Shown here: positions 483-56,200 of the stretch, one piece after another
How positions within the stretch are numbered: the first letter of the stretch is position 1
Layout: each line of letters begins with the position of its first letter
DNA from: Azolla caroliniana
Taxonomy: Eukaryota > Plantae > Polypodiophyta
Direction: 5' to 3'
Length of the DNA stretch: 64,000 nt
Assembly (NCBI GenBank): GCA_043228905.1
Contig: JBHGNT010000001.1
Coordinates: 1,116,001 to 1,180,000 of the forward strand
Translations under genes and position numbers: made by a program
The notes under the pieces: model-generated
What the model saw: only the letters and a program-made list of their open reading frames with translations
Databases searched by the model: none
Told to the model about the DNA's origin: nothing

Positions 483-3399
483 TCAAACAGCATATACTTT
501 TACTACTCTCTCAATGGAGCCTCTACACACAGGGCAACCCCATAGTTTGGATTGGATTTCAGTGAGACAGATCATGCATCCTGCCAAATGCCCACAAGGT
601 ATACATACCCCTTCTGCACTAGCATCCAAACATACTACACACAATCCACCCTTCATCATATCCATCTGATCTCCTCCATCTTTGATTAGGGGGGGAGCTG
701 ATGGAGATGCTAATAATTCGTTAGAAGCACTACTCTTCATTACTTCTTGGTCATTCATGCCCCAACCATTGCTCATAGCACTCTTGACGGCTTCTTGCTC
801 GCTCAGGATCCAATCATCACCACTACTCTTCATTGCTTGATCGTTAGACATCAACACGATACTACTACTCTTCATTGCTTGATCACTAGAAATCCACTCG
901 ATACTATTACTCTCCATTGTTTGATGACCAGAAACACAATCAATACTTGATGATATTGCTCTCTCGGCCTCTACTCCTGACCATGATACATTGTAGCATC
1001 CCTGTAGTTGCTCGTTAAAATCATGGAAACCCAAACTCATGTACAAAGGTCCACCTGGAATGTCATCACCATATTCCCACGCTTTATATTGATCCACGTT
1101 ACTTGAATATATGGTTGGTGATATAGAGATACCCTCCTCCCTTGCAGTCCTAATGGATTCATCCAGCGCGAGTGCCAACGCTACCCCTTCAGATATTGAT
1201 TCCTGGTCCATTGATGCCTTTGACTTGCCTTGAAGAACTGAATCATTCAGGACACTTACGGGATGGATTTGTGACAAATTGTTCCCTTGTTGATATATTC
1301 CTCCTATAGCTACCGGATGAGGATTTGCATTATACTTCACCTGAATGCCAAATTTTGTATATTGAAGCTTAAAAACTGCAGGTAAAAACATTTAAGTAGC
1401 AGCAACAATCATGGAAGATACTGATATAAGATACATTCTTCACTCACTAAACAAATTCCTTGACACGTTTCATATAGTCTCCTTAATTGGTGACTATCAC
1501 CCTTAGTCCCGGATAGAAGCTTATGCTTGGTTTCTGTCATAAACAATACATGACGCATACAAAGCAAGTATGTTAAGTAATTAGCATTTACAAACTAAAG
1601 CTAATTATCTACTAGAGTAGTTGAGAGAAATGACTAACTTTGAACTTTGTCGGTTATGAACAGGGCAGGATCAGGAAGGGTGAAATTGGGCTCCACAATG
1701 ATCGCATTTGTTAATTGTATCACTATTCGAGGCTGGGCAACCTAGTGTCATCATCGAGAGATTACAACTCTATATTTAAACGCAATCGTCTGAATACTTC
1801 ACAGGTTAAACCTCTACATTGCCATAAAAGAAACTCCATATAACAACAAACTTTCTTAAAATAACTGATAAATAGATACCAACATTGCATAACCCAGACG
1901 GATGAGCTGATGATGCTGGGACACCGTTCCACAAATTGACCTGTGAAGCAACTGATCACTTAATTTCATCTTATGAACTCATTATTGGCAGATAGCGGTA
2001 ATTAAAGCATGGAGAATCAACCTTGGGAGAATCATATATAGCAAGTTCATAAGCTGGAGCCCTGCCTGGAATATAAAATTTGGATGGCAGTATCACTGCC
2101 CAGCTACAATACACAGAATTAAAAATGATGAGTTTAATTTAAAAAGTAATACCATTCAAACTCATCATATCAAATTAGGCAGTGAATCAGAGCACAGTTA
2201 CATTTTTCTGGTGATCAAATTCGGTGCCAGTGATTCAAATATGCCGAATCCTGAAAGCTCTCGCAATATGCCACTGAAAATGCATATCTTTTCCTGCACA
2301 AGAAAGACCATTTACTGTTCTAGTCGGAGAGAAAGGGAAAAACATTATTTATGATGCAAACATCGTTTAGAGACTGACCTCCAGTAAGCGCACCACTGGA
2401 GTATGACCCTTGCTTCTTGCCATCTCAAGAGCTGTTTGGCCATCATCATTCACAGCCAGAGGATTGGCTGAAAAAAGCCAACCCAGAAACATGGAATCCT
2501 TATAGAGATTAACCAGAAACGCTCCAGAAAGCCGGACTATATTCCTTTTAATATTTATACGAGAACTAACCTCCACAAGAAACAAGTAAACCAACAGTTT
2601 TCTCAAGGCCCCTTTTTGCTGCGTGGTGTATTGCAAAACCTCCGTGTGATCCTGGACATAATGTTGCAGAATCTACTTATATCGGATTGTAATAGAACTT
2701 ACTTGCCCTAGCACATTATTAAAATACTATATAACAAATTACAATCAGGAGATTCACTTACCTGATCTGAATGCATCCATATTAGCACCTAATTGCAGCA
2801 ATAGCACAACCATATCAAAGAGATCCCCATGTGAACATGCCACCATGAGGGGTGTTCTTCCTTCTTTATCAACCCACTGATTAAGAAACGTGGAAACATC
2901 GTTATACTAATGCTAGTTATTAATCCCCCATAACAGAAGAATGAGGTGGTGTACACTTTCAGCGTGCATTTTTTCAGCAAATGTATAGCCAATGAATTAA
3001 TAACCATATACATTACAGATCTTAATTCATGAATCAATCAGTTCAATCATTAACATCTAGAAATCAGAGCATTAAAGAAGATAAATTATGTATGTTAATG
3101 AGGCTTAGAATAACACAACAGAACTCATTGAGTGATATAATTAAGAGTAAAATAAACATACACCAAAAAATGATCGTCACATCCTATATTAATTTTGTAA
3201 GCTTCTTACCTCCCACCATTATCCACACAAACATGATTGAGTTAAGAAATACAATAAGGGAAGTGAATTATTGATGGAGGTGGGGGAACAGACGTACTTC
3301 CAAAGAAGTTCCCTCTCTATGGAGAGACTTAACAGTATTCTGGTTGCCGTTTTGAACTGCCTGATAGAGAAGTTCTTCTTTTGAGCTCGAAGCTCCCAT
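483..3399 (-). CDS. XBAT35: Ankyrin-repeat + C3HC4 RING E3 ubiquitin ligase, XBAT34/XBAT35-like (~535 aa, 9 coding exons)
   Basis: Exons 3298-3399, 2762-2876, 2571-2651, 2379-2467, 2202-2293, 2022-2103, 1639-1741, 1448-1533 and 483-1340 join in frame with GT-AG sites. The protein starts MGASSSKEELLYQAVQNGN, has ankyrin motifs (GRTPLMVAC, AIHHAAKRG, GQTALEMARSKGH) and ends in a RING (CVVCLD...CIPCGHLAGCMICL...CPVCR). Confidence 0.9.
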
Positions 3400-12459: not shown

Positions 12460-13824
12460 TCAGTTGACTCTAGTACCTGGAAGGTACATGGAAGCAAATG
12501 CGAGACATAAATTCCAATCCCTTTCATCGCCCCAGCCGCCCCATCCTTTGAAACCTCGATTATAACCACTGATGGTATTATATCTAACATCCCAATGTGG
12601 ATTAATGTTAAGTACCTTATCTTCATCTTCTACAGGAGGGAGATTTCCTCCTTCGTCCAGACATGTACCTTGCCCACTCATTTTCCCCTGATGAAGACCA
12701 CATTTCCCAAAGTGCTGGGCACTTGTCCGTGGTCCTCTTAACGAATATATCTGATCAGCCCATTCAGGATACACGACTGCCCACATGGTTATATCCCAAT
12801 TATAATCATCAAATTTGCAAAATTGTTCCGAATAGGAATGGATCTTTCTCCAGATTGTTCGATTAAATGCATACCCGATGTTCCCAACCTTATCTGCGAT
12901 GAGGCTTGGGATTCTTTCTCCTCGCGACTGAACATTGGCAGGGGCAAGATTCACCATATAGCAATTTGGACATTTACAAGCCTTAAGAGCAGTTAAGGTT
13001 TGTATGTTGAGAAGAGCATTTGGGAGGAGATAATGGTCTTCTTCAATGAAGAGGATATGTTCATGATGTGTCCTTGTCTCGACCAAACCATCCCATACAG
13101 TATTCATCATCCACCACCAATGATGCTTTAGAGAGACTATATGAGGAGCTCGATGGTTTCCATATTGGTCGGGTTTACCATTACAAGTCCGAGGATCTTC
13201 CTTATTTTGACAATCTCCTGGACTAATTCCAGGAAAAGAATCGGTAAATATATGTGGTGAGAAAGGTGCGAAAATTTGTTTAACGCGGCAAAACCGAATG
13301 CTCTCGATGATTGCGTTCATTTCTTCAAAGAATCCATCATGACTAACGATAAGGAGCGACTCCGAGATGCCAATAACCTTAGAGAGACCTTCTATGGCGA
13401 CTCGTAGATATGATGGTCGATTGTGAACATAAAGGACTATGACCATATGATAGGCAGGTAAATGCGGAAAAAGGTCGACATTCCGGGCCGAGAAACCATT
13501 GCGGCGTTGAAGAAGCTTTGACAGAGTGTTCTCTTGGGGAAGAGTGATGTTGGGTCCTCTTTGGATCCATGGAAAATGGTTCGTATCTATGTGTAAATGA
13601 GAAGATTGCTTTGGTTCTTTGACTTCATCTTCCTCTTTCAAAAGTGGGCACAGTTGTTTTAGAAGAGGGTTACCTTTGTTAATGCTCTGCTGCTCTGATT
13701 TCTTGCTGAAGAAAAAGAGGTGAAGGGTCAGGAAGGAGCATACCAACAAGATCTGCAGTGAGAGAGTGATGATGCATCGCTTTGACCTCAGGCGCTTATT
13801 CAGAGATGAAGCTCCAATCCTCAT
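12460..13824 (-). CDS. MGAT2: Alpha-1,6-mannosyl-glycoprotein 2-beta-N-acetylglucosaminyltransferase (GnT-II, GT16), intronless, 454 aa
   Basis: Single ORF with a type-II membrane anchor (IITLSLQILLVCSFLTLHLFFF) and GT16 motifs YVHNRP, SHDG, KHHWWW, EEDHY, FDDYNWD, HFGKCGLH, GWGGWGD. Confidence 0.95.
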   Translation of the reverse strand: MRIGASSLNKRLRSKRCIITLSLQILLVCSFLTLHLFFFSKKSEQQSINKGNPLLKQLCPLLKEEDEVKEPKQSSHLHIDTNHFPWIQRGPNITLPQENTLSKLLQRRNGFSARNVDLFPHLPAYHMVIVLYVHNRPSYLRVAIEGLSKVIGISESLLIVSHDGFFEEMNAIIESIRFCRVKQIFAPFSPHIFTDSFPGISPGDCQNKEDPRTCNGKPDQYGNHRAPHIVSLKHHWWWMMNTVWDGLVETRTHHEHILFIEEDHYLLPNALLNIQTLTALKACKCPNCYMVNLAPANVQSRGERIPSLIADKVGNIGYAFNRTIWRKIHSYSEQFCKFDDYNWDITMWAVVYPEWADQIYSLRGPRTSAQHFGKCGLHQGKMSGQGTCLDEGGNLPPVEDEDKVLNINPHWDVRYNTISGYNRGFKGWGGWGDERDWNLCLAFASMYLPGTRVN

Positions 13825-14165
13825 CTCTGTTCTTTTCTCTTCTGCTTCTTCTTCTTCTTCTTCTCTCTCTCTCTCTGTGCGTGTGTTTTTCTACTTATTT
13901 CTTCTCCCCACGTGGGCGATAATTCAGACACGACAGAAGAAGAAGAAGAAGAAGAAGAAGAGGTGGAGGGGGAGGGGGAGGAGACGAGAGAAAAAATGAC
14001 CCAACTAAAACGTAAGCGTAGAGAAATTAAAGGCTTTGTGTTATTATTACACAAGCTGAAGCTGACCTCCTTCATTGATATGCATACACCGTGTGATCAT
14101 CACATTTGACCCCAACGCACTTCATCTACTCCTTCAAATTCGCGTGTCTCTTGCGCCCGAGCTCC

Positions 14166-16392: not shown

Positions 16393-19300
16393 CTATTCCA
16401 GTGCACTAACAGTTTTACACTTCGGCTTCTTCATCCCTTCTTCAAGGGAGACACCATCCACAGAACATGAAATGTTGTCACAATAAATATACATACGGGA
16501 ACTTGCACCGAATTCAATGACGTCCCCGACTCTTAATGTTCTAGCCATATTCTTCAATATCTTAGCTCCATTTACAAACGTGCCATGAGTAGAGTTGTCC
16601 ACGAGCTGGAAGACCGTCGAACAAGGTGGAGAATCCTTTTCTTGTTCTGGCACGTTTGTCAACAAAGCATGCTGTTCCAAAACGTTCATTCATTCATTCT
16701 ATCTCCCTCACATTCTTGAATCTTCGTTTCCATTAGTTATGACAGTTCTTTCCCATGAAAACTCGATACGACTTGAAGATTTTTAGTAACTCAGACTCAT
16801 TTTCATAAGAATACAAGCTTATTCTAGAGTGTTATGATGAATTTGGATTTGTATACATGTCCTACTCTCTTTTCTAAGAATATTTGATATACTACTAAAT
16901 AGTAATAATAGCCCTTTTTCTTGCCCCTGTCTGCTTATTATGTGTATGTTTTTATAAATATTTTGATAAATGCTAACAATTGTCATTTACATTAAATTAA
17001 GTTCTTTGAAGGAAAATAAAGGACAATATACATACATGACGGGATATTGAAGCATGATCAAGGATCACATTACAGTCTTCTCCTCGACCAAAAGATATCT
17101 TGTTCTTATTGAAAGGAATATTACCGATGCATTGTCCATCCTGGTCGAAATCATATAATTCTGCTTTAGTTTCCTGTTCCATATAGACCAACTATAAAGT
17201 AACTAAATATAATCACCTTCATGATATCGAGATGCAAAAATATAGTTCTATCCAGAATAGGAACGGCAGTAGATTTTAAGATGGAGGAATTAAATCCTGA
17301 TGCAGATGAGTACTCATGCAACGCTGATAAAAAGCCTGGGTTTGGATTGACTTTACTTCGCTGCTCCCGGAGGAACCTTCATTACAATGGAGTAAATTTT
17401 AAGTGACGAAAAGTGAAACATACAATTCAGTCAAACTTCTTTATCCATCTAGCAGATATTTATATCTAAATACTTCATAGAAAATAATGGAATTTGCAAC
17501 TATAACGTGCACATATCTTTTGATACATATGTAACAAATGCATTTCAAAGATGGGAAAGGAATCAAAATGGTCATTCCATGTTATGGTGCGAGGGAACAT
17601 AACAAGAAATGAGAAGCTAATATTTACCACGACTATGATGTGGAAAGGGGGAAGACCATATACAGATGCATGGTTTTACCCAGTTGAATAGTTCTCAATT
17701 TGCATACAAACACTAAATGAAGACATTCATAATTGCAGTTCCAGTCAAATTGTGCCAGAAAGTTCTTCTAGCAACTGATTTTATTCCCAGTTATCAGTGA
17801 GAATATCATTGATACTTGAGATGTGCATTTTCTACTTTTGAAATGAGCATACTTTTCATTTGAAATGTAATTATGACAAAACCATTTGTGGTACACAATA
17901 TGCTCACCATGGCAATGTGCAATCTCTAGACAGGTAGATGCATTAACCTTAACCTGCAGCTGCAGGAAAAGATGTAAGCTTTCTGAAACCTCTAAAAGAT
18001 GAGGTGGCTATGATACCTCAAAATGCATGTTTATATAACATGAATCCAGAAACCCCAATAGCCAGATAAAAACCCTAAGTTTGTGACCATTTACTTACTT
18101 CAATGCATCCTGAACACACCAGTAATTGACGCGCATCAAATATGCAGCACATAATGTGGCAGATCTACTGACTCCAGCACCACAGTGAATTAGAACTCTT
18201 CCCTTATCCTTCTTCGCTTTCTCCACAATCTCATATGTAGGCTCAAAGTACTGTTCAATATCTGCAGATGAAGAATCTGAAAATTCCAAAAGTCCATGGC
18301 ATAAATTATTGGCAATCAGAACTCTTTACATGATATGAATAGAAATTCAGATACACGGGCGATTATCTTATGTATGCTAGTGGTATATACTCATCCATAC
18401 AGGACCCAACTTCCTTCATCTGAAAAGTTATTCACATATTTGAGCATAAAAAATATATCCTTACAGTTAAAACTATATAAATCCATAGATACTTTAATCA
18501 TGATAAAAATATATGTTGTCAGTCAATCTTAACAAAAGTAAAACGCTCCTTTAGTTGCATTATCTATCTCAGAGGTAGCCTTCACTGCTTATCTACTCAA
18601 GCAACATATCTACTCGATGTGGATCAGATTGGAACATAATGAAAAGGACCTATAGCAGATTAATGCTTGGAATAGATTTCTTCAACACACTATTTGTAGA
18701 ACATTTCCTCAATTTGCAGTAGAAAGTAAGGAATATAAATCATAAAAATTCAAGGTTGATGCAATACGTACCTTCTAGTTCGAAGAATGTGTGCTTGAAG
18801 GACTTTGGCAGCTGCAATTGTTCTGTATGTATTGTTAAGACATGAGAAATGTGGAGATTTTTCAGACAGTTTTGGTCTGTAGCATGAGTTAAATCACCTA
18901 GATACAAGAGGCCTGGAACTACCTGCACAAAATTTGTTTTCTCCATAATTTGAATCACAATCCATTTGACCATTGAAAAGAGAATAGTAAATTAAAAGTT
19001 TGAACCCAGGTTACCTCGGTTGGATGGTTCTTAATTTCAGACGATTTTGTTGATTTTGTGATAATAAATGGGTATTCTCGTGCAAATACTGTAAATGCTT
19101 CATCTTCACCTAATGAAAAGATGAAGAGAGAATCAGAAGAAGTATAAACGTTGGGAAGGTTACATGAAAATTCACCTTTTGCTATAAAGGATACAATGCA
19201 ATAGGACAGTTCAGATATGGTTCAAAAAGTACAATATGTCTTGGACAAGAAAATGCAAAAAAAGGAAGAAGAAGAAAACTTGCATTGACGCTTCCGTCAG

Positions 19301-19692
19301 ATATGTTACAGGAAGCACAAAACGAAGGCAGAGAAAGACTTACCATCATCAGAATCATCATTCTCGAGCACATGAATTGATCTAACAAGTCCTTCTTCTT
19401 TCAAGAAGGTGAAGACAGGATGCAACGAGGAGGAAGCTATTGCCTTCTTCCTCTTTCGCGTTGAGCGAGGAGGAGGCAAAACAAGAAGAACATCGCGATC
19501 CCACCAACAGTTAGGATACCATGTAGGAGGGCCAGGGCCAGCAACATAGCAGAGGGACTGTTTGTGGCCAAGGTCAAGGTGGATGCAGACCGAACCACGG
19601 ATATGTCCGGCTGCGTAGGATGCAGAAGATCGAGTGTCGAGGACGAGCACACGAGGCTTGTCCATCAACAGGTTGTAGCTCCGCCATGCCAT
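16393..19692 (-). CDS. Rhodanese/CH2 + dual-specificity phosphatase + FHA domain protein (~438 aa, 7 exons)
   Basis: Exons 19344-19692, 19015-19109, 18772-18922, 18099-18276, 17217-17376, 17036-17140 and 16393-16671 join in phase (1317 nt). Rhodanese motif LVLDTR...YAAGHIRGSV; DSP motifs PTEVVPGLLYLG, ELED, HCGAGVSRS, AYLM, NPNPGF; FHA motifs FGRG, ISRHHA, STHGTFVNG, GDVIEFGASSR. Confidence 0.88.
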
Positions 19693-19899
19693 AGCTCTGT
19701 GTCTCCAGGCTCAGGCTCAGGCTCAGGCTCAGGATCGGCCCCTGCCTCTTGCCAAACCAATATGGAGAGACAGACAGACAGAGAGAAACAGAAAGAGCAG
19801 AAGGTCATGTGTTCAACCCCTACATTCCACATTGAGTGGCATGAATCTAATAAATTAAGAGAATATCTATGAAATACATATTATTCGAGAGGTGAGGAT

Positions 19900-19963: not shown

Positions 19964-21918
19964 ACAGGGCATAATCGCACACACTTCTTACCACCCAATG
20001 CGTGCACAAACATGCCCAAGTGTATATACATTTTGATGATTACACCTAAAATTGATGAACAAACTTGCACTCAGTATGATTCATGACAAATCTCCCAAAG
20101 ACCTCAACATATGAAATTCCTTTTTTCTCTTTCTTTTGGATTTGAGGTTGTCGCTCAATACAAATGGTGGGTTGAATATTCGACATTCTCTTAGTGTAGA
20201 ACAACCCTGTTATGCTCTAACATAGGCCTTCCTAGTCTCCAATGAATACGTCTACCATCTAAACCAAACCCTTTGTCTCTAGTTATCTACAAAAAGACAT
20301 GGACAACATGCCGGCTTTGTAACATGACCATGGTGGAGACATACGAGTGGCAACATCAGATCAAGGGTAACTTCTTTGGGTTACTTTATAGTTATGTGAA
20401 TCTCAAACAAGTTCTACCAAATGATCGATCCCTGCCTTAGGCATTGGGAGTATGCCTAAGCCAACTATTTTGTTATGAAGACCACAACTTTCTTTACACG
20501 CTTACTTCTCTAGGACATATCTCCATAGTGTACATTAATTTCTCGTCACCTTTTGCTACTCTCATGAAAGTTGCAAATTAACGGTAGGAACAATTGTTTT
20601 CCTTTTTTCTGTGTTGTATCCATTGCTTTAGGAAAGATCCATTGCTTTAGGAAAGATTGTAATGCCCACAATGTCAATATTTAGAAAAGGGTGCAAGAAA
20701 CCTATGTGGACAACGCACCTGCAAAGATTACTACCTCCAAGTGGGAGAAACATGTACTACAATTCTCACCCATGTACCTCAACCTACCAAGTTTGTTTAT
20801 GCATTAATAATGGAAGATTGTGCATCCTATATGAATGATTATTTCTCCATTTCAAGGGCTACATTGATTGTCTCAAGAGATTGTTGGGCATGTTTTAATG
20901 AAAGATCCCCGAGTTGGGAGTTTTCCAGCTCCTCTTGAATAGTCAATCTTATTTTTATATTTGAAGTGGATCAAGCTTGCAAATTCTTGCACTCGTTTAC
21001 CTTGCCTCACCATAAGCTTGATAACAATGGGCGCATTTAACCCACCACAACAAGCTTGCTGCTGGAGTTCTGCCTATACAACTAATAGTTTGTGATCCCC
21101 AACTGTCTATGAACAACTGAGTTTGCAAGTTATCCACCAGCACTAAGCAAGATTAGGATTCTTAATGCATGTCTGAAGTTAAACTCACTAATGAAAAGGA
21201 GTATGAAGATATGAATGCTTCATTTATTTCTTCCAGCCATTCTAGACATTGATCTTCGCACATCAACAACGAGGTGTCTGCAATTTAAATGATGATTCCA
21301 AAACCTATAAATAAGTACAGTAAGATCAATTCAATAAGAATACAGGATTCGCTTGTAATCTAGCAACTAAACAATTTACTGCCTTTATTACAAGAATCTG
21401 TGTGACTACTTTATTCACATTGTAATTACATTTGTCAATTTTGACCAACACCTCTCATGTGCACCTCTTTAACTTCATTGTTTCCTTGATCATGCTTCCA
21501 TCCTATCTCGATTATTATCATCATTGCAAAAGGGATATTTCTTGTTCTTTTTCCTTTCCATGGCCATAGCTGTTGCTTTTCTACATATATTACACTGCTG
21601 GGGAAACCCCAATTGCCTACGGAAAATGTAAAATACATATGGGATTCATTAAAACTTATATCGAAGGAGCTTTCTTCCCCTATACTTTTCATGTCAGGGA
21701 AACAATATAATTCAGCTTCTCCATCCCTGACGAGACATCAACAAACTGGCTTACCCCGATTATTTTCTTTTTTTACAAAGAGGAATAACCTCAGGAAATC
21801 GACAAGAATGTACAAATAACAAATGCTGATGATGTCTGACAAAAGTTGAGCTGCATCGCACTGATGATAAAATCAGACATCTGTACAATTATGCCTCCAT
21901 TCTTTACATGGTATGGCA

Positions 21919-24900
21919 TCATTCATTTTCTTCATCCGATAGTTCTGGTTTCAATGTATTTTGAAGAGGATTATGTGCTAATACAGGATGGACCAAAGAC
22001 ATCCTCTGAGCTGGAGCAGGAAGTGCATATACCAAAGACCCTGATGACCCTTCAATAAGGCCAGCAACACCTGCTGCAGCCGATTGAGCATTCGTAGGGA
22101 GAAAGAGATCATGCCTTTGATCTTTGTATGCAGACCATACCTATAATCCAACACAACAAAACACACATATCCTTGTGAGACCCAGGCTCATCAAGCATTT
22201 TCCCCGAATACTCCAAAAGTCTGAGTTAGTTCTAGGCCAACACCCAAAACAGTATACCCGATTTGTTTTCCAAAAATCACCAGAATACCCCCCCCTGCAA
22301 TACAAAGTGTAGTACCGCATAGGAGAGGGATCATTCAGGTGCTTTTGAAAACTTGCGGGTATTTTGGTGTTTTCCCATTTCATTTATATACATACATCGG
22401 ATGAATTCAATATATCTCGCACTCTAACTGAATGAGCACCGTCACTTGCAAAAGCATGCAACACCTACACACGAATAAGAGATCTGGTAAGAAATGAAAC
22501 ACAAACGGCTTATTAAGTGTGCATGGCAACATATAAAGAGCTATGAAGCTAAACCTCAACAGCTAATACTCTTCCAACGGAAGCTTCAGACTCATTCCAC
22601 TTCATTTGTGCACAAAGACCAGTGGTACCTCCTGCTCGCCAATCAAGCAGCCCTAGAAGCACCTGCACTAACCCTGCCCTGTACATGATATGACATCATC
22701 AGATGAATCAGATGAATCTCAAACACTTCTGTCTCAAAATCGATCTGTATGTCAAAGTGTAGAATATTCTCACTTTAACCCTTGTGCAACCAAAGCGTCC
22801 CTTGCACGATTTCCAGCAACTACTACCCTTTTCAGTGTCTCCAGAGCAAGAACGCTGCCACCTTGCCACCCTATTGCTTTCATCAATAGTGGAACCACCT
22901 GTGAATAAAAGATATTCAATAATTAATTTAGGAGTTTCAAGAGAATTCTCCTTAGTAGAGTGAGAAAAATAACCTGAGGAGACCCAATGCCAGTTGTTGC
23001 CATGGCTTCAGCACAAGCAGTGCTAGCAGCCAGCTGATGCAAGACTCTCAAACAGCTTAATCTCACCCTTTCTTGCGAGGTTTGATTTGTTGACATCCCT
23101 CCAACCTCTGACAGTAATAAATCTTCAGAACATTCTCTGGCTACTGCCTCTCCAGATGACATATTTTCTCGCTTGCTTTCATTCGCTGTCGATGCAACTA
23201 GCTTTGGTATATAGCCTAAGTGGGCAACATGATCTGCTAATGATGGATGCACTCTCAATAGAGATACAAGGGCAGCTGATAAAAGCAGTGCGAGCTCAGG
23301 ATCAACAAGCCCATTTCCTTTCACATGAGTCGCTGCCACTGCCGAGGCATACTGATCCAGAAGACCCTCGAGAAAACGCTTCGGATTTCTAAGAGGGAAT
23401 TTCGGATCTTTGAGAAACAATCTTACATAAACACCGCCAACCTGCAAAACTGAGCTAAGTCAATTCACCTCTACAGTGGATAAATACATGTGGCACGTCA
23501 GGAGTTATAGTTTGAACTTCGAAGATTACCTGTGGTTCATCGCGCATCTCCTGATGACCAGATATTTGTTCAGGTAAGTCCCATTCCGCTATACTGCCTT
23601 TACCTTGTTCTCGATAAAGATCAGATGCCATTGTCGAGACCTGGGCACTGAGTGTTGATGCCATGGCTGGACTCCATACAAGCTCTGGGGTCTCAATTGT
23701 CTGTTCAAGTGCTGCAACTACAGCTTCCCCTGGCCCGTCACGTATAGTAGAAACCAGGCCATCTGGAAGGTATCGAGCAAGAGTAATTGCCACCCGAGGA
23801 CCATGCATTGGTTGACCAACAAGCTTTCCCAGCAAGGAAGCGGCAGCTGCTCTCTGCTGGAGAGGTATCTCATCTACAAAATATAAAGCAAAAATTTAAT
23901 GTACTTCGCAACATTACAACTTAGCAATGATATAAAAGATGGGGACGAATGAAATATACTTTGCATGGGAAGTAGAAGTTGAAGTATGTAAATAAATCCT
24001 CCATGCTTTGCAGTAACCCAAGCCAGCTCTGAGGTACTTGCCAAGGCAGACAGAACCCTTAAAGCCCCTGGTCTGCAAGAAGGTGTGCTATGCAAAAGTT
24101 TAAGTACGTGCATCAAACTAGAACGATCAGCCACCATGGCCTCAACACTAGGAGCATGTATTGTTAAGATAGACAGGATATTCAAGCATAATTCTGGCAC
24201 CTCCCCACTAGAACTAGTATCGACAAGACATTCAAATAGTGGTATTAATTGCTCTTTAGAACTGAAGGTTGAGGCAAGGGTTGGAATACTCGTAAGGAGA
24301 TTCTGCAGCACCAAACATGTATATCTGCTGGTCAATGCAAAGAAGTATAGTTGAAATAGAATCAAGCACATTAATGTTTTGAAACGCACCTGAAGTGCTG
24401 TAAGCCCAATGATCAGATCTCTTAAGAAAATTTCTTCTGGTGCCAAAATCTCATGTGGGATCTTCCCACAAGAATCTTTGTCTGCCTCCACTTCGCTTTC
24501 AACTTCTGTCGATGATTCAGAACAAAGTTCTGGCTCATTTGGTACTTCTACGGCAGTATCTTTTGCAATATTCAGCTTTTTTCTCTCCTCTACTAGCTTG
24601 CAGATGAATTTCAGAAGGGACTCACAAAAGAAATCAGCCTGACTAAGTTCATAATCTGGCTGCTCATTGTAAACTCTTAAGTACACTTCACCCACATGAA
24701 GCTCTTTTGCAAGAGATTTATATTTGAAATCCTGTGCCGCTTTCATCTCATACGTACCATCCGGACACTGAGATGCCCGCTGCTCATCCACAAACTTTAA
24801 GAGCTCGCCCCGTGTGGATGAATTCCAAATTACCTACAGGGTTAACCAAGAATTTACTAAATTAAATAGTAAACACTTGAAGGCCGACAACTCAATATCA

Positions 24901-27900
24901 CAGAACTACTAACCTCTGGGGTTTCCAAATTAGCATTGAGGTTGCAGAGCAGCTCTTTTGGAGACTCAATATTAAGCATAGCTGCTAACTTTGGAGTTAG
25001 TAAAGATTTCAGAGACTTGGATGCAGTATCATTGTATGGTGATGGGCATTCTTCAGTTTGAGAACCCTGCAAATGGCTAAGAGCATGTGCTGCAAGAACA
25101 GCATGCGTGTTTTTGGCAATCTGAAATCTTCTTCCAACGCCACGAGGTTCACTTGCGCTACTTTCTTCTGCTGTCAAATCATACTGCAAAAGAAGAGGAA
25201 GAAGATACCTACACCACAAAAAATAAGAACACAGTCAGTACATCTCTTGCAACACGCCACAATATAACTAATAAATTAATGGGCATTTACCATATGACTC
25301 CAGTCTTTAACATGCGATCTTGCATGTCCTGTGATGCAGCCACATTACTAATAGTTTGAAGAGCAGAGTCTACGGCTGCATGTGCATGCTCTAGCTCTGA
25401 GCAATGTACCACATCTTCAACAAACCCAGGACATTGCAGCATTTCTCCCCACGAACTTTTGAATTTGCTCAAACCAGAAAATGTAAGCATGACATTTGTC
25501 ACAATCATTGCTGCTGGATCTGTTGCAGGAGTGCTATTTTGTACTACATACATGCACCTTGAGAGCAGCGTTGCAAGTAAAGATATCCCACCATCTCGTA
25601 CCAATTCCTCACCATTAAGGGAGGAAGAAGCACACCTGTTGCAAATTCGAAAGAAAATATATATCATGCATTATGAAATAGATACACATCTGATTTAAGG
25701 AAGGGTAACTCTTACGTTAGCCACACAAGCTCTGATGCTGCAATAAGGAGTGGCGCTCTTTCTAGAGAGAGAAAATTATTATCATCTTTATCAACTGTGA
25801 TGCAACTGAATAGCATCTGATATCCTGCATATTTAAATGGCTCCAAAACCTTTCCATACCGCCTATAAAGAATGCATTGCCCTTTTAATAAGAGTAGCAA
25901 CCTCCAGGGCTGTGGACCTTGGAGACCATGCAGAGTAGCCTAAAAAAACCAACAAGACCATATACAAATTGCAATAAGCAAATATAATATCAGGAAATTC
26001 ATGACGATTTTTAAGTATACGCATATGTTTATGTGCAGGTATGTGTGATGTGATCAATTAGAACTTGAAATACCTCCATGAAACTTATGATCTGTCAGCT
26101 TTTTTATTTAATAATGAATCTATATATTTTTATTTGATTATGATTTATATATATTGTTTCTTAACAGTAAATAAGGCTCATTTCTCTTTTGACCTATCAA
26201 AGGACCAGTATGGTTGTTTCTGCATATGAAACGACCAAATTGGTAATCCTCCTAATTTTAGTGTCCTTCCTAGCATATCAACAATGTAGAATAAAGGACT
26301 CTATACAGAGAATCTGAATCGGTAATACTTCTAATTATAATTCCCTTCTAATGTATTCACCATGTAGAATAAAGGATCTTCCACATTCCAGCAAACTCAG
26401 TCTTGTATTCATGTATTATTTAATGCAAAGCATTCTCTACATCTATAATTAATGACAAATAAATGCAAGCACTGGTCCAAACCTGCAAGCATTCATAAGC
26501 TTTCTGGACAGCCACAAACTTCTCTCTTCCCTCTGGATTCTTGTCTGGGTGATACTTCATCGCAAGCTTCCGATACTGTCTCTTGAGCACCTCTTCATCA
26601 ATTCGACCAGACAATGGCTCTGTATTTTTCCTGTCATCTTCAGAGGAATTACAATCATTGTTATTGCATATATCCTCTTCAAATGGTATCTCCAATATTT
26701 TACAGGCTTCCTCCTCAGAAAGATCCATTGGTCTTCTTGTTAATTCTTCACGCCACATTGTAAGCAAAGATTGGAGAAACTCAACATGCTCTACAATGGG
26801 CCAATCTGGGAACCTTATCTCATCACATAAATTCCTTAGATAATAACGATGGCACCACATTTCATCATGAAGTTCTGGGTATGTAACGGGAGGCATGGGT
26901 GCATATTCATATAAAGAATGGCAATGCTGGGATAATTTCTGAATAAAATCTCCAAGATGTTTGAGTACCTGTCACAAAAGACATTCAAACAAGAAAACTA
27001 AATGAAATATAATTAGAGATAAACGTTACTACCTGGGAAAGCAAGAAATAAGGTTCCATTAAAAATAACCTGAACTGTATATAGTGTTGCATGAATACAC
27101 TTTTCTTTCTACGGACTAGATGAAGAACAAAATACCTGATCAATTAGTCGCTCTGCTCTCATCTTATGTGTCCATATGATTTCTGGCGTATCTGAATCAG
27201 CAACCATTGCTGCAGCAAAGGCGGCTGGGCCACTCCTTTCTAACACATAAAGAAGTGACTCAGGTAAAAGTCCACCAAGAATGCTTCGTTTTGCCAAAGG
27301 AAGAGATGAAGATAAAGCTGCTTCTGCTCCTCCATGGAAAGCTTGAAGCGTATGTGTAGCAGCCAGAAGGTTGGCCGCAGAATTCAAGTTTGATCCTGCA
27401 TAGGCTAGCAGAAAGTAGAAAGCACCTGTATTGTAAAGACGAGCCATAGCTTTAGGGTTCCTTGTCACCACAGCTTTCAAAAGTGATGCTGCACCATCTA
27501 CAATAGCAGGTTCTCCTGATAAAATTGCCTATATAACACAAAGACAACTTCCTTATCAAATTTCTAGAATTTTCTCTTTTTGCAATGACTATAATATTAA
27601 GACTCAGAAACAACCCTAATCAACACATGTACAGGTGGTATCGTAGTGAAGGTAGAATTATGTATAAATCATTAAGTACAATCATTCTTGGAAACACAAA
27701 CCCCTTTACAGATGTTTGGCTACTTGGACACAGCAAGCATCAATAAGCTCCAAGCAGATGTCAAAACAATATCAATAAGATGGATCCCTGGTAAGAAGTG
27801 AAAGTGCTTATAAACAAGGACCAAAGAGAAAACGATGCATGCTGAGAAGCAACCTGTGAAAGTACCTCTGGACAAAAGAATATTTAATATATACATGGAT

Positions 27901-30900
27901 GACGAGATATACAATTAACCAGTCAAACAAAATACCCAACAACTACATCAACTAAATGAGGTAACAATAAGAGAATTTCTTGTGGGAGTAGCTCAGTCAG
28001 CTTTATCTATGTGCTACATAGGATGAAAGAGCAGTCACCTGTGCTATATGAGGAAGACAGTGTGAGCTGGACAAGATGCGCTTAACTCGTGGAGTAGGAG
28101 TTACAAGCTCACCAGCATCATCTAAATCTGAATGAACATTCACCATACTATGCAAGATCGATAATGCAACTTCTCCAACCTGATCAACAGTGAGCAAATG
28201 AGTTTAGGGACACATATAAACCAATACAGATAAACAACAGTTCTAAATCATAAATCAAGCAGTGTCTCAGGAATGAAGGCATATATGAATAGAATACAAA
28301 TTATAAATGTGCATATGCTTTATTCAAAAATAGAACTTATATGCTGCTAATAAACAGAGAACATAGTATAGACAATATGGTAGGTTAAAAAGGTGAAAAC
28401 ACAACTGCATGTTGCTAATATCATTAAACTTGTAAATTTAATGGGTCACTATTTGAATGTTAGACCTGAAGTATTCATAAGGTCAAAGGAAGGTGGAACA
28501 TATTACATACCAGCTGGTATGGCCACATCCCATTAACACAATTAGGATATAAAGAAATTAACAGTAAATAAAAGAAAGTGTATATATTATGTACACTTCC
28601 TAGTTCCTAAAGCTCAATCAAGACTTTCCACATTATCTACAACCTCGAATTAGAAATTAAAACTCAAGTTCAACGTTGCATACCTGTGTCGGTGTGAGCA
28701 CTGGAACACGAGAAGCTAATGCCCATCGCAATTCTCGAAGATCACTTAATTTTCTCCACTCTGTCATGCCTGACGCCCAGCATTTTGTGTTCCAATCTAT
28801 CTCCTGTTTTGACCATGCTCTTCTAATACCATCTTTTTCCATGGGACCAATCTGCACTCCATCTTTGTTAACATAATGCCATTCCTTCTGTGGCTCTACA
28901 AATGCAGTTGATGCTATAAGATTTGACTGCAGTGGAATCGAAGTTCGTTCTGCTGTTTCATGTGCTGTTGTCAAAAGGTCTACAGCTAGGACACACCCTC
29001 CTACAGACACACAGGCCTCTGCATTTGAAGGCACCTTCATGAGAACCTGCCCCAGGTATAAAAGAGGATAGATAAGATTAAACAAATAAGAGATTTTAAA
29101 ATAACAATACAACAAACAATAACGCATCACAACAGCAATTATCTTATTATAAAAAACAATCTAAGCTGGCAGTCCATATCTGGGAAACTATTATGACAAA
29201 AACATAAATATTATGGAAAATGACAATAGCAAAACAAGAGAAAAGCAGGAATGAAAGTATGCAGAGCATAGTATCTCATCAGCATGTGTCACAAAGCGGC
29301 CAGAGAGGGAGAGCCTTTGAATCACAGTCTAGCCAATTCTTAGCCTGATGAGATACGCTTGTCTATCAAGCTAGATATTTCGCTACATGCAATTGCTGCA
29401 TGGCCTGGGATTACACCCTCTTCAAGTCCTTAGGCTTTTGGGCTCTCCTCATCCTGATCCCCATATGCAAGTATATGCATAGCTTGAATCATCAGGTTTC
29501 CTAAAGTTTCAGGCAAGGGATGATCATGGATAATATGACCATGATCCATAGGGTGGGTGCAGGCATCATTCATAGATTACCATGCCCCCTGCAGCAGTTG
29601 CAAGAATTTCTTCTAACAGTACAAGTTTCCATGGATGCAGCAGTGTCAAATCAGCTCATCAATAAGTTTTACAACTTAAATACTTAGTTTGTCAATCAGG
29701 TCTATGAAATCTCAAATAAAGATTGTGTGCTAGTGTAGTTATTTGCAACATATATCGTGATTATTGTGTGATGTGACACGTCCAACAAAGTAGGCCACTT
29801 AGAATTTACATATGCAAAATTAAGATAAGATGCCTTTTTTTTTTTCAATCCTTTCCAAGACAGAAGTTTCAGTCCACCTAAGTTCCGATTGTTAAGTGGT
29901 TTGCTAAAACGAAACCTTAGACGTATTCAAAACAAGAGCACAGAATTCCCTTCCTGACTATTGGACATGAATTATTTATATCAAAACCTCTTGAAATAGA
30001 GATTCACCCACTAGTTCAGCCACAATAGGAATGTGTTACAAGTATGATATTGACCCTCTCTATGTTTCTCTATGATGGGATAAGGACATGGGGTGGTTGC
30101 ATAACCACATTATTTAACTGCCAAAGTCCTGGCCTTACCAATTGAAATAAATGGATATTGCAATCCTCAAGCCCAGCAAGATTGTAACAGAAAACCCCTA
30201 TTTTTTTATGCTGATATACATCCTAGCATTAATATATTCGTATGAACTCTGAATATGAACCATCAATAAGTAGTTCCATTACTTAAGACAAGTGGCAAGA
30301 AAAATATTCACCTTCGAGAGCAACAGAAGTCGATGTCGAAGAGTTCTATCATTTGTACGATCCAGTAAAACAGTAATATGAGCAGTTCCATCAAAAGCAC
30401 CTATTACAGAGAAATGTTGTTCATAGACAATTGACATTGCTCTTGCACATAACTCCCTTACAGCAGGACCACCTCCACCTCCAAACCCATCAAGTTTGCC
30501 AACATCACACCACTCCTCTGATGTACCCATTTCATCCCAATTTGCTCCTTCAACAACTAATCCCATGTCAGCATCACACAAAAAACGATGGTATAATGCC
30601 CTAAAAAAAGCAGAAGGATCTCTAAGAGGGAAATCTTGTGCCCTGCCTCCCATTCCACCACCATCAAGCAGAAGCCTCAGATAATACTGACCGACACACA
30701 CTTCCTTTGAAAGGCTAGGATACCTCACCCTAAACTCCAAGTAGTTCCAAGAAAGCTGGCTGGAAATCTGTTGTCCATGTCTGTCAGCAGTTTCATATGT
30801 GGTAACATTCACATCTTCAGTGCGCTGCTTCTCCACATTTAGATGGTGAACCTCAGATTTCAATGCTTCTTTTAATTCTTGTCTGGTGCGCTCATTCCAG

Positions 30901-33900
30901 ATTAAATCTGCACGGCTGTGGTCCAGTTCAAATTCTCGCCAAAACTCTGGCCAGTTACAAAGTAATCGACCAGATCCCACAGGAGTACTTTCAGTCACAA
31001 CTTGTGCCGGGGCTGGAACATTTTGATAAGAAGAGAAGGCAGGGCTTGAATCACCAGTGCTGGTATCAACACCGTTTTGATTTGTAAAACCAGTGGATGA
31101 AGGACCAATATGAGGGTCCAATGAAAATGCCCCATCAGCTGTGGGAGAGCATTCAGGATGTGGGACTGCTGAGGCATTAGTAGTTGTAGGACTATTTACC
31201 GGTGCCTGTGAATTTGATGTTGCTATTCCATTCTCATTTATTGTATCTGGATGAGAGGTTCCCTCTTTCTTATTCACTGGTTCACCAGCATTCTTCGTGT
31301 GAAATGATCTTCCTCTTCTACGTTGAAGAATGCGCCGTTGACTCCTTTTTGTAGAGACAGTTGCCTTGGTTTCGAGATCCAGGCCATCTTCATCTTCATC
31401 TTTCGGAAGAGTATGAAGGTATGCTACTAGACCTGGTGGTATCACACGTGAGAGGAGTTCAAGAGCTGGTTGATATGAATCCGCCCATAGAGCTACAAGT
31501 TGTCTGCTGACCTCACGACGCTCACCAGCTGGGAGGAAACAAGCACTTTCCAGATGCCTCAAAAGTGCTCCATCACGCAATGCAGCATCTCTCATTGATT
31601 CGGCAGCAATTGCATCCTCCTCTGCAATAGTTCGCATAATTACCGCAACAGTCTCCCTTACACTCTCTGCAGGGTGCCCAAACAGAATAAACAACCGCCT
31701 TCTTAAACCTGCCACCTGCCTTAGCATTTCCACAAACATAGAATGGTCTGTCGTCTCACTTTGAGGTTCACAAAGCATTGCCTCTAATACTTCCACCACT
31801 GCCATGGACAACAAAGGGGATACGGACATTGATTTTAACCGATTGACCAGGATAGTTATATATGATTGTTGACCAAAAAGGACAGATTTTGCATGCATCA
31901 ACGCTGCATGCCTTTCTCCTTTTGTGTTGAGAACATAACCATTCTCACCAAGGCCACCTCCAGTAAGTACAGCAATAAGACTCGCACCTTCTGCAGCCAC
32001 CCCTTCAGACCCACTTCGCACCAAGCCTAATATTCGCTGCACAGCAGTAGCATTTGAGATAACAACTGAAAATGCGCTCGTGGAACTAAGCAACCTTCTC
32101 AGACAAGCAATGAGGCCCATGATTGTTGCAGATGCTTTAGGCGATGGAGATGGTGGTGGAGGGGCTTCTGGAGGCAAATTTGGTGGAGCAGGAAGTAATG
32201 ACAATAAAGCAATTAGAGCAACCTCTGGCACTTCAGTATTAGATTGTATTCCACTATATGGAATACATGCATTAAATTCTCTGACTCTGCGCCAGAATTT
32301 TGCCTTTGATCCAGGAACAGCGCCACCTTCAGCTACAGCATCCTTCGCAGCTGCAATAAGATGTTTCAAATGAAGAGCCTCCCCCTCAATGTCAGCAAAT
32401 AAGCGATGATGCAAGGAGTTTCCAAGTTGGGGTAGTTGTGGAACCTTGCCACATGGAGGATCAAGATGGTGACCTGGAAGAGTTAATCTTGGCAAAACCG
32501 CTATAGAACGCTGCCCCTGAATGTGAGAGTAAGTTTACATATAAACTCAGAATCTTGCATCCAAGAATTCAATTTGCGCTAAGTATTTATGCCTCACCTC
32601 CATCTGCACAACATCCAGTACGGCAACCAATAAACTGTCACGGGACGTACTTGAATATACCTGCATAATAATCCTTCCTTTATAAACCACAAACACATTA
32701 CAGATAGCCACCTAGCTATTCAATTAAGGACCCATACCAATAAAAAAGTTCACCTAATAAAATCAATATTGCACAAATGCACTGAGAACTTACATGAATT
32801 GGACAACCATCATTGAACTCTATAGCAAAAAGCTGTGGCTCCTCCACAAAACGGACAAGAGCAGCTACTGAAGATAATGGTCTAACAATAACTGCCTAGA
32901 TCAACACAATGTCCAAACCAATCATAATAGCACCTCTTTCACTTCTCCTTAAATTTTCAAGGGTTAGACTTTGGCATGAAATTACCTCATAGTTATCTGG
33001 TCTACGTTCCACAAGGGATACCCTTGTCAAAACAAGTTGCCTTGGTACAGAGTCACCATTCTCATCTAATCTCGATTTTCCTCCAAAAAAGAAATTTGTG
33101 CTTAAACTATTCACAGTGCCATGCCCAGCAGATCGAAACCTAATCACAGACCATTCTCCATATCGTGTTTCCTCAGCACCAACTGCTACCATAGCTGTTC
33201 CATTTCAATCAATAGAGACTAGATCAGATTTGCATGATCAGAAACATGAGTGCTGAGATCAATTTTGAGATGCGAACCATGATTACTAGCATATCTAATT
33301 TTACCTCTTTGTTTCAAGAACTCTGTTGCCCCAATTGTTTGAGAGCTATCGATCAGCAGTGTTAAGCCCAACTGTGTCTTGGCAACGTTTGTCTTCAAAA
33401 ACCATGAATCTTTATTAGCAATATTTCCTTGAATATGAAAAACAAGTTTCGCAAGGTTAAGTGTCCAAGGGCCCACCATTCTAACTGCCATGATAAGGGT
33501 TTAAGCAGCAATAAAAAGAACAAAACTGATCTACTTACTCACACCAGTCGGGCCACAGAGAATGACAAGTATTTCAAATAGTCAAGTTTACTCATTTAAC
33601 TTACCATTTTTGACAGAATGGCTGAGTTTGATACACCTGAAGCTGCTATAAATGCTTTACACTTCCGACCATATAGGGGGCACAAAACAAATCCACCTCC
33701 TTCAACAGCCTTCCTGCCATAAGCATCCGCAAGAAGTATTATACCAGGAGAGTCCATATCCCGAAAATCCAAACACCATCGCAGATCTCCTGTCTTTGGC
33801 TGTCTAATTTCAACTCCAACAGCTGTAATTCGTAGAGTCTGTACCCATGATATAAAAAAAATGCATAAGAGTCTCTAGCCACAATGTTAAATGACCAAAA

Positions 33901-36900: not shown

Positions 36901-37004
36901 TCGGGCTCTTCGTGCACATAAGGTTCATGTGTAGATGGTGATGACACCGACTCAGATGGTATGGATGATACCGGGTTCAAAAGGCGGTTAAGAGAAGATT
37001 CCAT
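21919..37004 (-). CDS. GRV2: DnaJ homolog subfamily C GRV2/KAM2 (RME-8/DNAJC13 orthologue), ~2595 aa, 23 exons
   Basis: Exons 36640-37004, 34119-34254, 33605-33838, 33305-33392, 32986-33194, 32794-32895, 32598-32660, 30312-32516, 28684-29046, 28039-28179, 27136-27528, 26483-26968, 25716-25939, 25291-25635, 24914-25208, 24390-24833, 23960-24302, 23530-23873, 22974-23441, 22774-22898, 22555-22678, 22396-22464 and 21919-22140 sum to 7788 nt in frame. Motifs [13 protein letters not shown] repeats, a GYF-like WHY...GP domain, J-domain KYHPDKNP and terminal [14 protein letters not shown]. Confidence 0.95.
35553..35946. repeat. Tandem duplication, ~198 bp x2, in GRV2 intron 1
   Basis: caggttcaagagccttgtaccaaa...ctactatcatcta starts at 35553 and again at 35751 with few substitutions. 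Confidence 0.9.
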
Positions 37005-51326: not shown

Positions 51327-52216
51327 TCAATCTTGTCTTTTTGCATCTGCATTTCCCATGCTTTCTGACCTCAGATTTTGCACTTCTAGCCTCAGCTCTT
51401 GATTTTGCACTTCTGGCACCTTTGAGCTCATCTTTTGGTTTTTCAGTGTTTCAACATCATGTTTATCTTTTCCAGAGCTTCCGTCCTCTGTGTTTGTATC
51501 CCTCTCAAGATATATTGTGTATTTGTCAGATAAACCCTTGCATTTCTCTATAGGGTATTTCTTGGAGTTCTTTTCTATTTTCTTAAGCGAAGCTTCACCC
51601 AAGTTCACATTGCAAATGTCAGCGAGCCGAACCAAATATAAGAGCACATCAGAGAGCTCATCACCCAAATGCTCTCTCTCCTCGGAACTCCAACCAGGGA
51701 GACCTTTCTGAACTTCTCCCTTCCATTGGAATATCTCAGCAAGCTCCCCAACTTCTCCAACCTTCAAAAAGAAAAAAACACAAAAAAATAACTAATTTGG
51801 CCTAAACATGAAGAGAACAGAATCTCAAACCCCTAAAGACGAAGAAAACCTCATAGACAAAGATGAAGAAAGTTACACAGAAAAAAATTCCTCACAACAT
51901 TAAAGATGAAAAGATCCTTTACAAGAAAAGAAACATTCACACACAGAGAAAAAAGGAACTTTCGACCTAAATCTGAAGAAAGAATGAATTTTTTTAGAAG
52001 AAGATCAAACAGAGCCCGGAAACCGTAAAATTGAAGAGCCAGCGGAATTATCTCAGAAATAAAGACAAGGATTTTAACAAATACCAAAGCAAGCAGGAGG
52101 TTCCTTGGGCTATGGAACTTTCCCCAGTCTCTAACATTCGCAAAATCCTCCATCTTCGTCTTCAAGAGAGAGAGAGATACTGACTTCTCAGCGCGAGAGG
52201 TGTCCTCCTCTTCCAT
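51327..52216 (-). CDS. DCTPP1: dCTP pyrophosphatase 1 (MazG-like all-alpha NTP pyrophosphatase), ~188 aa, 2 exons
   Basis: Exons 52085-52216 and 51327-51761. Motifs FANVRDWGKFHSPRNLLLALVGEVGELAEIFQWKGE, EHLGDELSDVLLYLVRLADIC and KNSKKYP. Confidence 0.92.

Positions 52217-56127: not shown

Positions 56128-56200
<73 letters not shown>

What the first reader, a model, noticed from the sequence alone, without database searches (positions are those of the whole stretch)
16393..19692. Animal-MKP-like rhodanese-DSP phosphatase fused to a C-terminal FHA domain
Seen: seven phase-consistent exons give one 438-aa ORF with three domains. The rhodanese/CH2 domain has both halves (LVLDTR..YAAGHIRGSV and IHVLE..AFTVFAREYP). 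The DSP domain has an intact general-acid Asp (ELED), P-loop HCGAGVSRS, AYLM and NPNPGF. The FHA domain has its phospho-Thr-binding residues (GR, SxxH, STHGT..NG). Known: the CH2+DSP layout defines metazoan MAP kinase phosphatases (DUSP1/6 type), whereas the Arabidopsis MKPs (MKP1, MKP2, DsPTP1, IBR5, PHS1) lack a rhodanese domain. I know no characterised DSP with an FHA tail. Inference: a phosphatase with two targeting modules (kinase docking plus pThr reading), possibly kept in non-seed plants and lost from angiosperm models.
Basis: partly seen in the sequence, partly recalled or inferred. Interest (0 to 1): 0.85.

Follow-up and report, generated by a model that had tools for sequence, protein, structure and literature searches.

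The report
Green-lineage phosphatase with phosphothreonine reader
This fern-type gene is spliced into one protein that joins a phosphatase to a domain of a phosphate-tag-reading family, a layout found from green algae to mosses and ferns and apparently lost in flowering plants; it likely finds its targets by reading that tag, because it lacks the kinase-docking motifs of the animal enzymes it resembles.

Summary
The gene is real. Seven GT-AG exons give a 438-aa rhodanese + dual-specificity phosphatase (DSP) + FHA protein. Single contigs from two relatives span all six junctions, and a Sphagnum-type locus has the same six introns. It is the fern member of an old green-plant family: chlorophytes (Chlamydomonas 'MAP kinase phosphatase 5', Cre07.g316600), streptophyte algae, bryophytes, lycophytes, ferns and probably gymnosperms. 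No flowering-plant hit was seen, on moderate negative evidence. The 'animal MKP' reading needs correcting. The family lacks both MKP docking signatures (the basic KIM and the FxF motif) and has a 21-residue rhodanese-DSP linker. Its predicted two-domain core best matches the ciliary pseudophosphatase STYXL1, yet it keeps the catalytic Asp, Cys and Arg. The FHA is closest to NIPP1 and kanadaptin, and NIPP1 reads pThr-Pro. Likely mechanism: an active phosphatase recruited by its FHA to Thr-Pro-phosphorylated targets in a MAPK-family pathway. The ERK8-like kinase, present in this genome and reported lost in flowering plants, is an untested candidate. My paper searches found no description of this architecture.

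The parts
19344..19692 (-). Exon 1 (aa 1-116): start codon, rhodanese/CH2 first box, family W..CWW(D/G)R motif where animal MKPs carry the KIM, basic loop
19444..19458 (-). Basic patch RKRKK (aa 79-83) in a variable rhodanese loop; candidate nuclear localisation signal (inferred). Present in land-plant and one streptophyte-alga row, absent from the chlorophyte rows
19015..19109 (-). Exon 2 (aa 117-148): second CH2 box and the short rhodanese-DSP linker
18772..18922 (-). Exon 3 (aa 149-198): N-terminal half of the DSP domain; the general-acid Asp199 codon is split by intron 3
18099..18276 (-). Exon 4 (aa 199-258): P-loop His229-Cys230-X5-Arg236 (18187-18161) and AYLM
17908..17959 (-). Alternative 52-nt cassette exon in intron 4 (AG/GT ends); stop at aa 269, 283 nt before the last junction; likely poison exon, seen in one run
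17217..17376 (-). Exon 5 (aa 258-311): end of the DSP domain (PNPGF, no FxF), flexible linker, first strand of the FHA
17036..17140 (-). Exon 6 (aa 312-346): FHA with Gly329-Arg330 and Ser342-x-Ser344-Arg345
16393..16671 (-). Exon 7 (aa 347-438): rest of the FHA (His347, STHGT..NG, FGAS), short tail, stop codon

Best explanation
This is the fern ortholog of Chlamydomonas MKP5, a three-domain protein with an intact dual-specificity phosphatase site that likely picks its targets through an FHA domain reading phospho-Thr-Pro marks, not through animal-type kinase docking, and likely acts in a MAPK-family pathway. Shown: gene structure, splicing, domain order, conserved catalytic and FHA residues, family membership, absence of the KIM and FxF motifs. 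Predicted: rhodanese and DSP pack as one rigid STYXL1-like unit, with the FHA on a flexible tether. Inferred: catalytic activity; pThr-Pro preference (from likeness to NIPP1 and kanadaptin); recruitment to a target already marked by a proline-directed kinase, followed by removal of a second phosphate, most simply from a MAPK-type activation loop or from a protein in the same complex; nuclear entry in land plants through the basic loop.
For: Catalytic residues in the family rows of alignment A3: Cys 61/61, Arg 60/60, Asp 56/57; FHA Gly-Arg 56/56, Ser 56/57, His 56/57. The DSP domain of the ortholog model superposes on DUSP5 at Z 26.8, rmsd 1.2 A over 144 residues. The best FHA matches of the family profile in the PDB are NIPP1 (E 8e-19) and kanadaptin (7e-17); pTP is the one common determinant of NIPP1 FHA ligands (PMC3553949, passages). 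KIM and FxF are absent. The DSP-FHA linker is the only stretch under pLDDT 50 in a model of mean 90.8 and varies from about 21 to 112 residues across the family. MAPK link: Chlamydomonas mkp3 x mkp5 double mutants lose the BCI-induced phospho-MAPK signal and fail to regrow cilia (PMC10011610, section 10).
Against: No activity or binding assay was run or found for any member. The mkp5 single mutant had no significant regeneration phenotype, and the double mutant shows less phospho-MAPK, not more, which is opposite to the simple expectation for a lost MAPK phosphatase. The passages and the one supplementary file searched give no gene id, so mkp5 = Cre07.g316600 rests on the database name. Lacking FxF argues against a MAPK substrate at all (PMC4802042, passages). 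The window's own exon-7 piece hit nibrin first and kanadaptin second, all weakly. The fold was made for an ortholog 61% identical (P0004), not for the window's own protein.
Confidence: 0.45

Rival explanations
1. Nuclear phosphatase for non-MAPK substrates: a one-chain analogue of NIPP1-PP1 whose FHA captures CDK-phosphorylated Thr-Pro proteins of splicing, chromatin or the cell cycle.
For: The FHA is closest to NIPP1 and kanadaptin. A basic patch is present in 13 of 14 streptophyte rows that have the loop at full length and in none of the chlorophyte rows (first 33 rows scored; fragments set aside). Both MAPK docking motifs are missing. Structurally similar FHA domains occur fused to a rotamase in green algae.
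Against: The only genetic data touch phospho-MAPK and cilia. Chlorophyte members lack the basic patch. That DSPs of this fold prefer pTyr/pThr activation loops is recalled, not tested.
Confidence: 0.25
2. Flagellar protein related to STYXL1: a structural or regulatory part of the axoneme or of tubulin folding, kept where sperm or zoospores swim.
For: The top Foldseek hit is STYXL1 in the bovine sperm axoneme (9fqr_Xs, E 1.9e-16, TM 0.70 by target, 290 columns, 19% identity) and rank 4 is a chain of mouse radial spoke 3. The Atlas model of the Chlamydomonas member matches two clusters named STYXL1 and one similar chordate cluster at TM 0.83/0.78/0.66, against 0.41 or less for the DUSP8/9/10/16 rows. 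STYXL1 also lacks the KIM and is needed for sperm flagella (PMC10761714, passages). The double mutant has a cilia defect.
Against: In the hit list these were the only entries aligned over both domains; classical MKPs appear only as single domains, so the ranking favours STYXL1. The short linker is shared by many unnamed rhodanese-DSP proteins (21-34 residues in 12 of the 13 that could be measured, of 21 rows), so it may be ancestral. Members occur in Auxenochlorella and under a Spirogloea-style id, lineages I recall as lacking flagella. Chlamydomonas lacks the distal part of radial spoke 3, and STYXL1 sits on the RS3 stalk (bioRxiv 2025.05.19.654877, passages). Spliced contigs occur in several studies of unknown tissue.
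Confidence: 0.15
3. Classical animal-type MKP that docks a MAPK through its rhodanese domain, with the FHA as an extra.
For: Same domain order; DSP sequence closest to DUSP5/1/4/10 among solved structures; the AU test does not reject grouping with animal MKPs (p 0.27); the RKRKK patch is basic.
Against: KIM and FxF are absent. RKRKK lies in a different, length-variable loop and is missing in chlorophytes. In the best tree the animal MKPs form their own clade (SH-aLRT 100) among other rhodanese-DSP proteins, apart from this family.
Confidence: 0.1

Closest known systems
Chlamydomonas reinhardtii 'MAP kinase phosphatase 5' (XP_001700990.1; CHLRE_07g316600, A0A2K3DIQ6)
   Same: Rhodanese + DSPc + FHA all above Pfam cut-offs; same P-loop; same clade in both trees.
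   Different: About 100-residue DSP-FHA linker and no basic loop. Studied only as a presumed DUSP6 ortholog; 'FHA' and 'rhodanese' occur 0 times in the main text of that paper.
Animal MKPs (DUSP1/2/4/5/6/7/10/16, insect Mkp3)
   Same: CH2/rhodanese followed by an active DSP domain of the same fold.
   Different: No KIM, no FxF, linker 21 against 42-70 residues in the 5 of 9 that could be measured, extra FHA.
STYXL1 / MK-STYX
   Same: Compact rhodanese-DSP unit, no KIM arginines.
   Different: STYXL1 has Phe-Ser in place of His-Cys and is inactive (PMC8907265, passages), and its clusters list no FHA; 19% identity; orthology not tested.
NIPP1 (PPP1R8) and kanadaptin FHA domains
   Same: Best FHA matches of the family profile; Arg, Ser-x-Ser-Arg and His spaced like the NIPP1 pTP-contact residues R53, S66, S68, R69, H92 (mapping inferred from spacing).
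   Different: NIPP1 recruits a separate phosphatase, PP1; here reader and catalytic domain are one chain and the enzyme is Cys-based.
Arabidopsis KAPP (recalled, not examined here)
   Same: Plant phosphatase carrying an FHA domain.
   Different: PP2C-type metal enzyme, FHA N-terminal to the catalytic domain, acts on receptor kinases (recalled).

Membership tests
Green-plant MKP5 family (rhodanese-DSP-FHA) | Three domains in this order on one transcript | tested here: met
   21 of 74 hits carry all three Pfam domains and 11 more carry DSPc + FHA
Green-plant MKP5 family (rhodanese-DSP-FHA) | One clade that follows green-plant descent | tested here: met
   quick tree, SH-aLRT only: family 83, land plants 98, fern group with the window 99; six shared intron positions with L017
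Classical animal MKPs | DSP domain with Asp, HCX5R(S) | tested here: met
Classical animal MKPs | N-terminal CH2/rhodanese domain | tested here: met
   Pfam Rhodanese 28.5 bits against cut-off 22.2; fold
Classical animal MKPs | KIM: consecutive arginines after the first CH2 box | tested here: not met
   present in 5 of 5 animal rows; 5 of 43 family rows have any adjacent basic pair in the segment, 1 matches the KIM pattern, inside an insertion
Classical animal MKPs | FxF motif starting helix 5 of the catalytic domain | tested here: not met
   8 of 8 animal rows, 0 of 59 family rows; alignments; definition from PMC4802042
Classical animal MKPs | Descent within the animal MKP clade | tested here: inconclusive
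   separate in the best tree, but AU p 0.27 for holding them together
Classical animal MKPs | Dephosphorylates the MAPK TxY loop | not testable with these tools
   only indirect genetics in PMC10011610
STYXL1 / MK-STYX | Compact rhodanese-DSP unit without KIM | tested here: met
   (predicted models on the query side)
STYXL1 / MK-STYX | Loss of catalytic His-Cys | tested here: not met
   His and Cys 61/61
STYXL1 / MK-STYX | Orthology by tree | not tested
   no row named STYXL1 was among the proteins fetched
FHA domain, NIPP1/kanadaptin type | pThr-binding Gly-Arg, Ser-x-x-His, and best matches to NIPP1 and kanadaptin | tested here: met
   the Asn of the last motif is variable (26 of the rows, Asp 14, Gly 9)
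FHA domain, NIPP1/kanadaptin type | Binds pThr-Pro | not testable with these tools
   needs a peptide-binding assay

The most novel reading that the evidence does not exclude
Green plants carry an ancient, catalytically live counterpart of the pseudophosphatase STYXL1 that uses a fused FHA domain in place of MAPK docking motifs and is the dedicated off-switch for the ERK8/MAPK15-like kinase. Kinase and phosphatase were lost together on the way to flowering plants. Basis: ERK8-like kinases are reported in algae, including Auxenochlorella, and in lower plants, are lost in flowering plants, and have a substituted docking site (PMC6411719, passages); this genome encodes one (L015). No physical or genetic link was tested, and many unrelated genes share this distribution.
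Probability: 0.17. Interest if true: 0.78.

Novelty: new variant of a known kind. Interest (0 to 1): 0.52.

Why it matters
The usual picture, recalled and not checked in print here, is that plant MAPK phosphatases lack the animal rhodanese module. This family shows that a rhodanese-DSP enzyme is old in green plants and apparently was lost only late. It adds a targeting design for Cys-based protein phosphatases, a fused phospho-Thr reader in place of docking motifs, that my searches did not find described. It offers an active enzyme with the shape of STYXL1, whose rhodanese function is poorly understood. It is directly testable: a Chlamydomonas mkp5 insertion line and a synthetic cilia phenotype already exist.

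Tried and rejected
Separate genes or a mis-joined model: rejected by single contigs over all junctions and shared introns. Testing absence in flowering plants: one search named none, but scored only the 7996 candidates sharing most words. One search (gymnosperm-like rhodanese region) returned only 3 close relatives and missed known fern and moss orthologs, so it failed its positive control and carries no weight. One search (metagenomes, 23 loci) gave Sphagnum-type, one fern-type and unrelated DSP loci, a weak blank. One search lists unnamed 50% clusters that could hide such members. No named hit from Physcomitrium, Marchantia, Selaginella, Chara or Klebsormidium appeared either, which shows these searches miss or lack lineages. 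No run was on record as RNA. First fold with 6 rows was poor (pLDDT 57.5) and was not used. Atlas feature searches for P0012 and P0113 were blank. A relative's exon-1 protein found no PDB sequence match. The wide VIA search was not run; the VIA second look covered only the DSP domain. Pattern searches for an ERK8-like kinase first returned 7 group D MAPK-type sites and 2 CDKA-type copies. No complex prediction was run: enzyme-substrate pair, and no intron-free kinase sequence was at hand. Kerk et al. 2008 (Plant Physiol 146:351), the survey most likely to list the algal protein, is not held; it or its supplement may already note the FHA. Earlier-findings look-ups were empty.

Full report
1. 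Observation. Joining the seven minus-strand exons at GT..AG introns gives 438 codons and a stop. Pfam finds Rhodanese in exon 1, DSPc in exon 4 and FHA in exons 6-7. The window lies at G000:C1:1116001-1180000 in a 523-Mb genome, and the gene is single-copy by two exon searches. Contigs from runs guessed to be RNA skip exactly the predicted introns. X9 and X12, from relatives, each hold one contig from exon 1 to exon 7, and the flanking intergenic bins have no cover. A Sphagnum-type locus has introns at the same six places. The fusion is real and is not an artefact of gene modelling.

2. Splice variants. X1, identical to the window on its listed pieces, shows a 52-nt exon inside intron 4 that ends the frame at residue 269, 283 nt before the last junction. 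This would remove the end of the DSP domain and the whole FHA and is a likely decay target. X2 and X3 also show skipping of exon 5, which shifts the frame, on short sides of 29 letters. Contigs show presence only, so the share of productive transcript in X1 is unknown.

3. Family. Exon 1 alone retrieves 7 proteins, 6 with all three domains, from Adiantum, Sphagnum, Diphasiastrum and unnamed transcript contigs, 48-61% identical to the model; the seventh (P0006) diverges after its N-terminus and was left out. The profile search gives 74 hits: 21 with all three Pfam domains and 11 more with DSPc + FHA. Named members come from Ceratopteris, Calypogeia, Volvocales, Haematococcus and trebouxiophytes, with partial Cymbomonas. 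Cluster look-ups add Chlorokybus, Trebouxia, Auxenochlorella, a pedinophyte, Neomeris and Tetraselmis. Two ids, Gb_32022 (a 230-aa partial) and SM000006S19385, I read from memory of id styles as Ginkgo and Spirogloea. Three unnamed full-length clusters (P0011-13) are closest to the Gb protein (P0012 72% identical) and are taken as gymnosperm-like. The Chlamydomonas member is labelled MAP kinase phosphatase 5 and equals CHLRE_07g316600. None of the 74 rows bears a flowering-plant name. Because a 19-residue P-loop stretch is nearly invariant in land plants and proteins at 43-45% identity were recovered, that blank has some weight, but the follow-up search failed its control and several expected bryophyte and lycophyte genera were not seen either. 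I put loss in flowering plants at about 70%.

4. Trees. A DSP-only quick tree of 173 rows puts all 51 FHA-bearing rows on one side of a branch (SH-aLRT 92) with 11 rows lacking a detected FHA, many of them fragments (28 near-duplicate cluster members were dropped beforehand). A rhodanese+DSP quick tree of 62 rows recovers the family (83), streptophytes without Chlorokybus (98), land plants (98) and a fern group holding the window (99); animal MKPs form a separate clade (100) among unnamed rhodanese-DSP proteins. Holding family and animal MKPs together is not rejected (AU p 0.27), so the deep relation is open. A long-branched sister group holds a Chrysochromulina protein without FHA and unnamed FHA-bearing proteins, so the fusion may reach beyond green plants.

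5. Anatomy. Catalytic Asp, His-Cys, Arg and Ser are almost invariant, as are the FHA Gly-Arg, Ser and His. Two MKP signatures are missing. The KIM arginines seen in 5 of 5 animal rows are replaced by a segment ending in a conserved W..CWW motif. The FxF motif that PMC4802042 (passages) reports as essential for MAPK recognition is present in 8 of 8 animal rows and 0 of 59 family rows. The rhodanese-DSP linker is 21 residues in 9 of the 10 family rows that could be measured (of 11), against 42-70 in animal MKPs. An AlphaFold model of ortholog P0004 on 86 rows reaches pLDDT 90.8, pTM 0.70, with only the DSP-FHA linker under 50. Foldseek ranks STYXL1 from the sperm axoneme first, aligned over both domains; the Atlas model of the Chlamydomonas protein also prefers STYXL1-type clusters. 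The DSP domain alone is closest to DUSP5/1/4. The FHA profile is closest to NIPP1 and kanadaptin, and NIPP1 ligands share pTP (PMC3553949, passages). Land-plant members add a basic loop that could be a nuclear signal.

6. Mechanism. The simplest reading is an active DSP on a rigid rhodanese base, with a tethered FHA that replaces docking motifs as the address reader. The FHA would bind a Thr-Pro site already phosphorylated by a proline-directed kinase and bring the catalytic domain to a second site. The MAPK link comes from one paper: mkp5 alone showed no significant regeneration defect, mkp3 x mkp5 failed to regrow cilia and lost the BCI-induced phospho-MAPK signal (PMC10011610, passages and section 10). 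The direction of that signal is not what loss of a MAPK phosphatase predicts, and the gene id of the mutant was not found. I give this 0.45, a nuclear non-MAPK role 0.25, a flagellar STYXL1-like role 0.15 and classical docking 0.10.

7. Candidate partner. PMC6411719 (abstract and passages) reports ERK8-like kinases in algae and lower plants, lost in flowering plants, with an altered docking site. G000 has one such locus: L015 carries the activation-loop motif of that paper's ERK8-like rows inside a kinase gene. The shared range and the shared lack of canonical docking make it a good first substrate to test, but this is correlation only.

8. Novelty. Searches for DSP + FHA + rhodanese, FHA + DSPc + algae and the gene id returned no paper; two searches returned 6 and 2 listings, none on this family by title or abstract start; MKP5 + Chlamydomonas returned 3. 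A plant PTP review has no FHA or rhodanese in its text (PMC4765517, passages). The library omits most subscription journals and Kerk et al. 2008 could not be read. Other papers seen as passages: PMC10761714, PMC8907265, PMC12399478 and bioRxiv 2025.05.19.654877. The domain string is already visible in public annotation and the algal gene has a name, so this is an undescribed variant of a known kind, not a new class. Interest 0.52.

Noticed in passing
window 17959-17908 (-): 52-nt cassette exon with a premature stop, in the only intron-4-spanning contig of the closest run (X1); absent from five runs of relatives.
   Followed up: partly
window 17376-17217 (-): Exon 5 skipping (958-nt joint) in X2 and X3 gives a frameshift and a stop at aa 283; support is only 29 letters on the short side.
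   Followed up: partly
window about 16660-16615 (-): The window's FHA has a 9-residue insertion between two strands that the six orthologs lack.
   Followed up: no
L015 (G000:C10:5836246-5839268): ERK8/MAPK15-like kinase gene with a TDY loop, the MAPK type reported lost in flowering plants.
   Followed up: partly
L006-L012: Seven sites with the group D MAPK activation-loop motif; stops or intron-like sequence just before it suggest a shared intron there.
   Followed up: no
L013 and L014 (G000:C4 and C377): Two near-identical CDKA-type loci; C377 may be a redundant haplotype contig.
   Followed up: no
L002, L003, L004: Other DSP genes in G000. The P-loops of L002 and L003 look like PHS1 and MKP1 types (labels recalled), so this fern seems to keep flowering-plant-type MKPs as well; L004 was not examined.
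   Followed up: no
P0033, P0127, P0255, P0167: A long-branched group with a different P-loop holds a Chrysochromulina protein without FHA and unnamed DSP-FHA proteins; possible haptophyte branch or transfer.
   Followed up: partly
window 486-2672, 12463-13890, about 21400-37200, 51330-52324, 54537-62935 (all -): Neighbours by Pfam: ankyrin/RING ligase, MGAT2, RME-8/DnaJ, MazG-like pyrophosphatase, KUP/HAK potassium transporter pieces. No functional link seen.
   Followed up: no
window 19700-19835: Simple repeats (CT-type and a hexamer run) just upstream of the start codon, in or near the 5' UTR.
   Followed up: no
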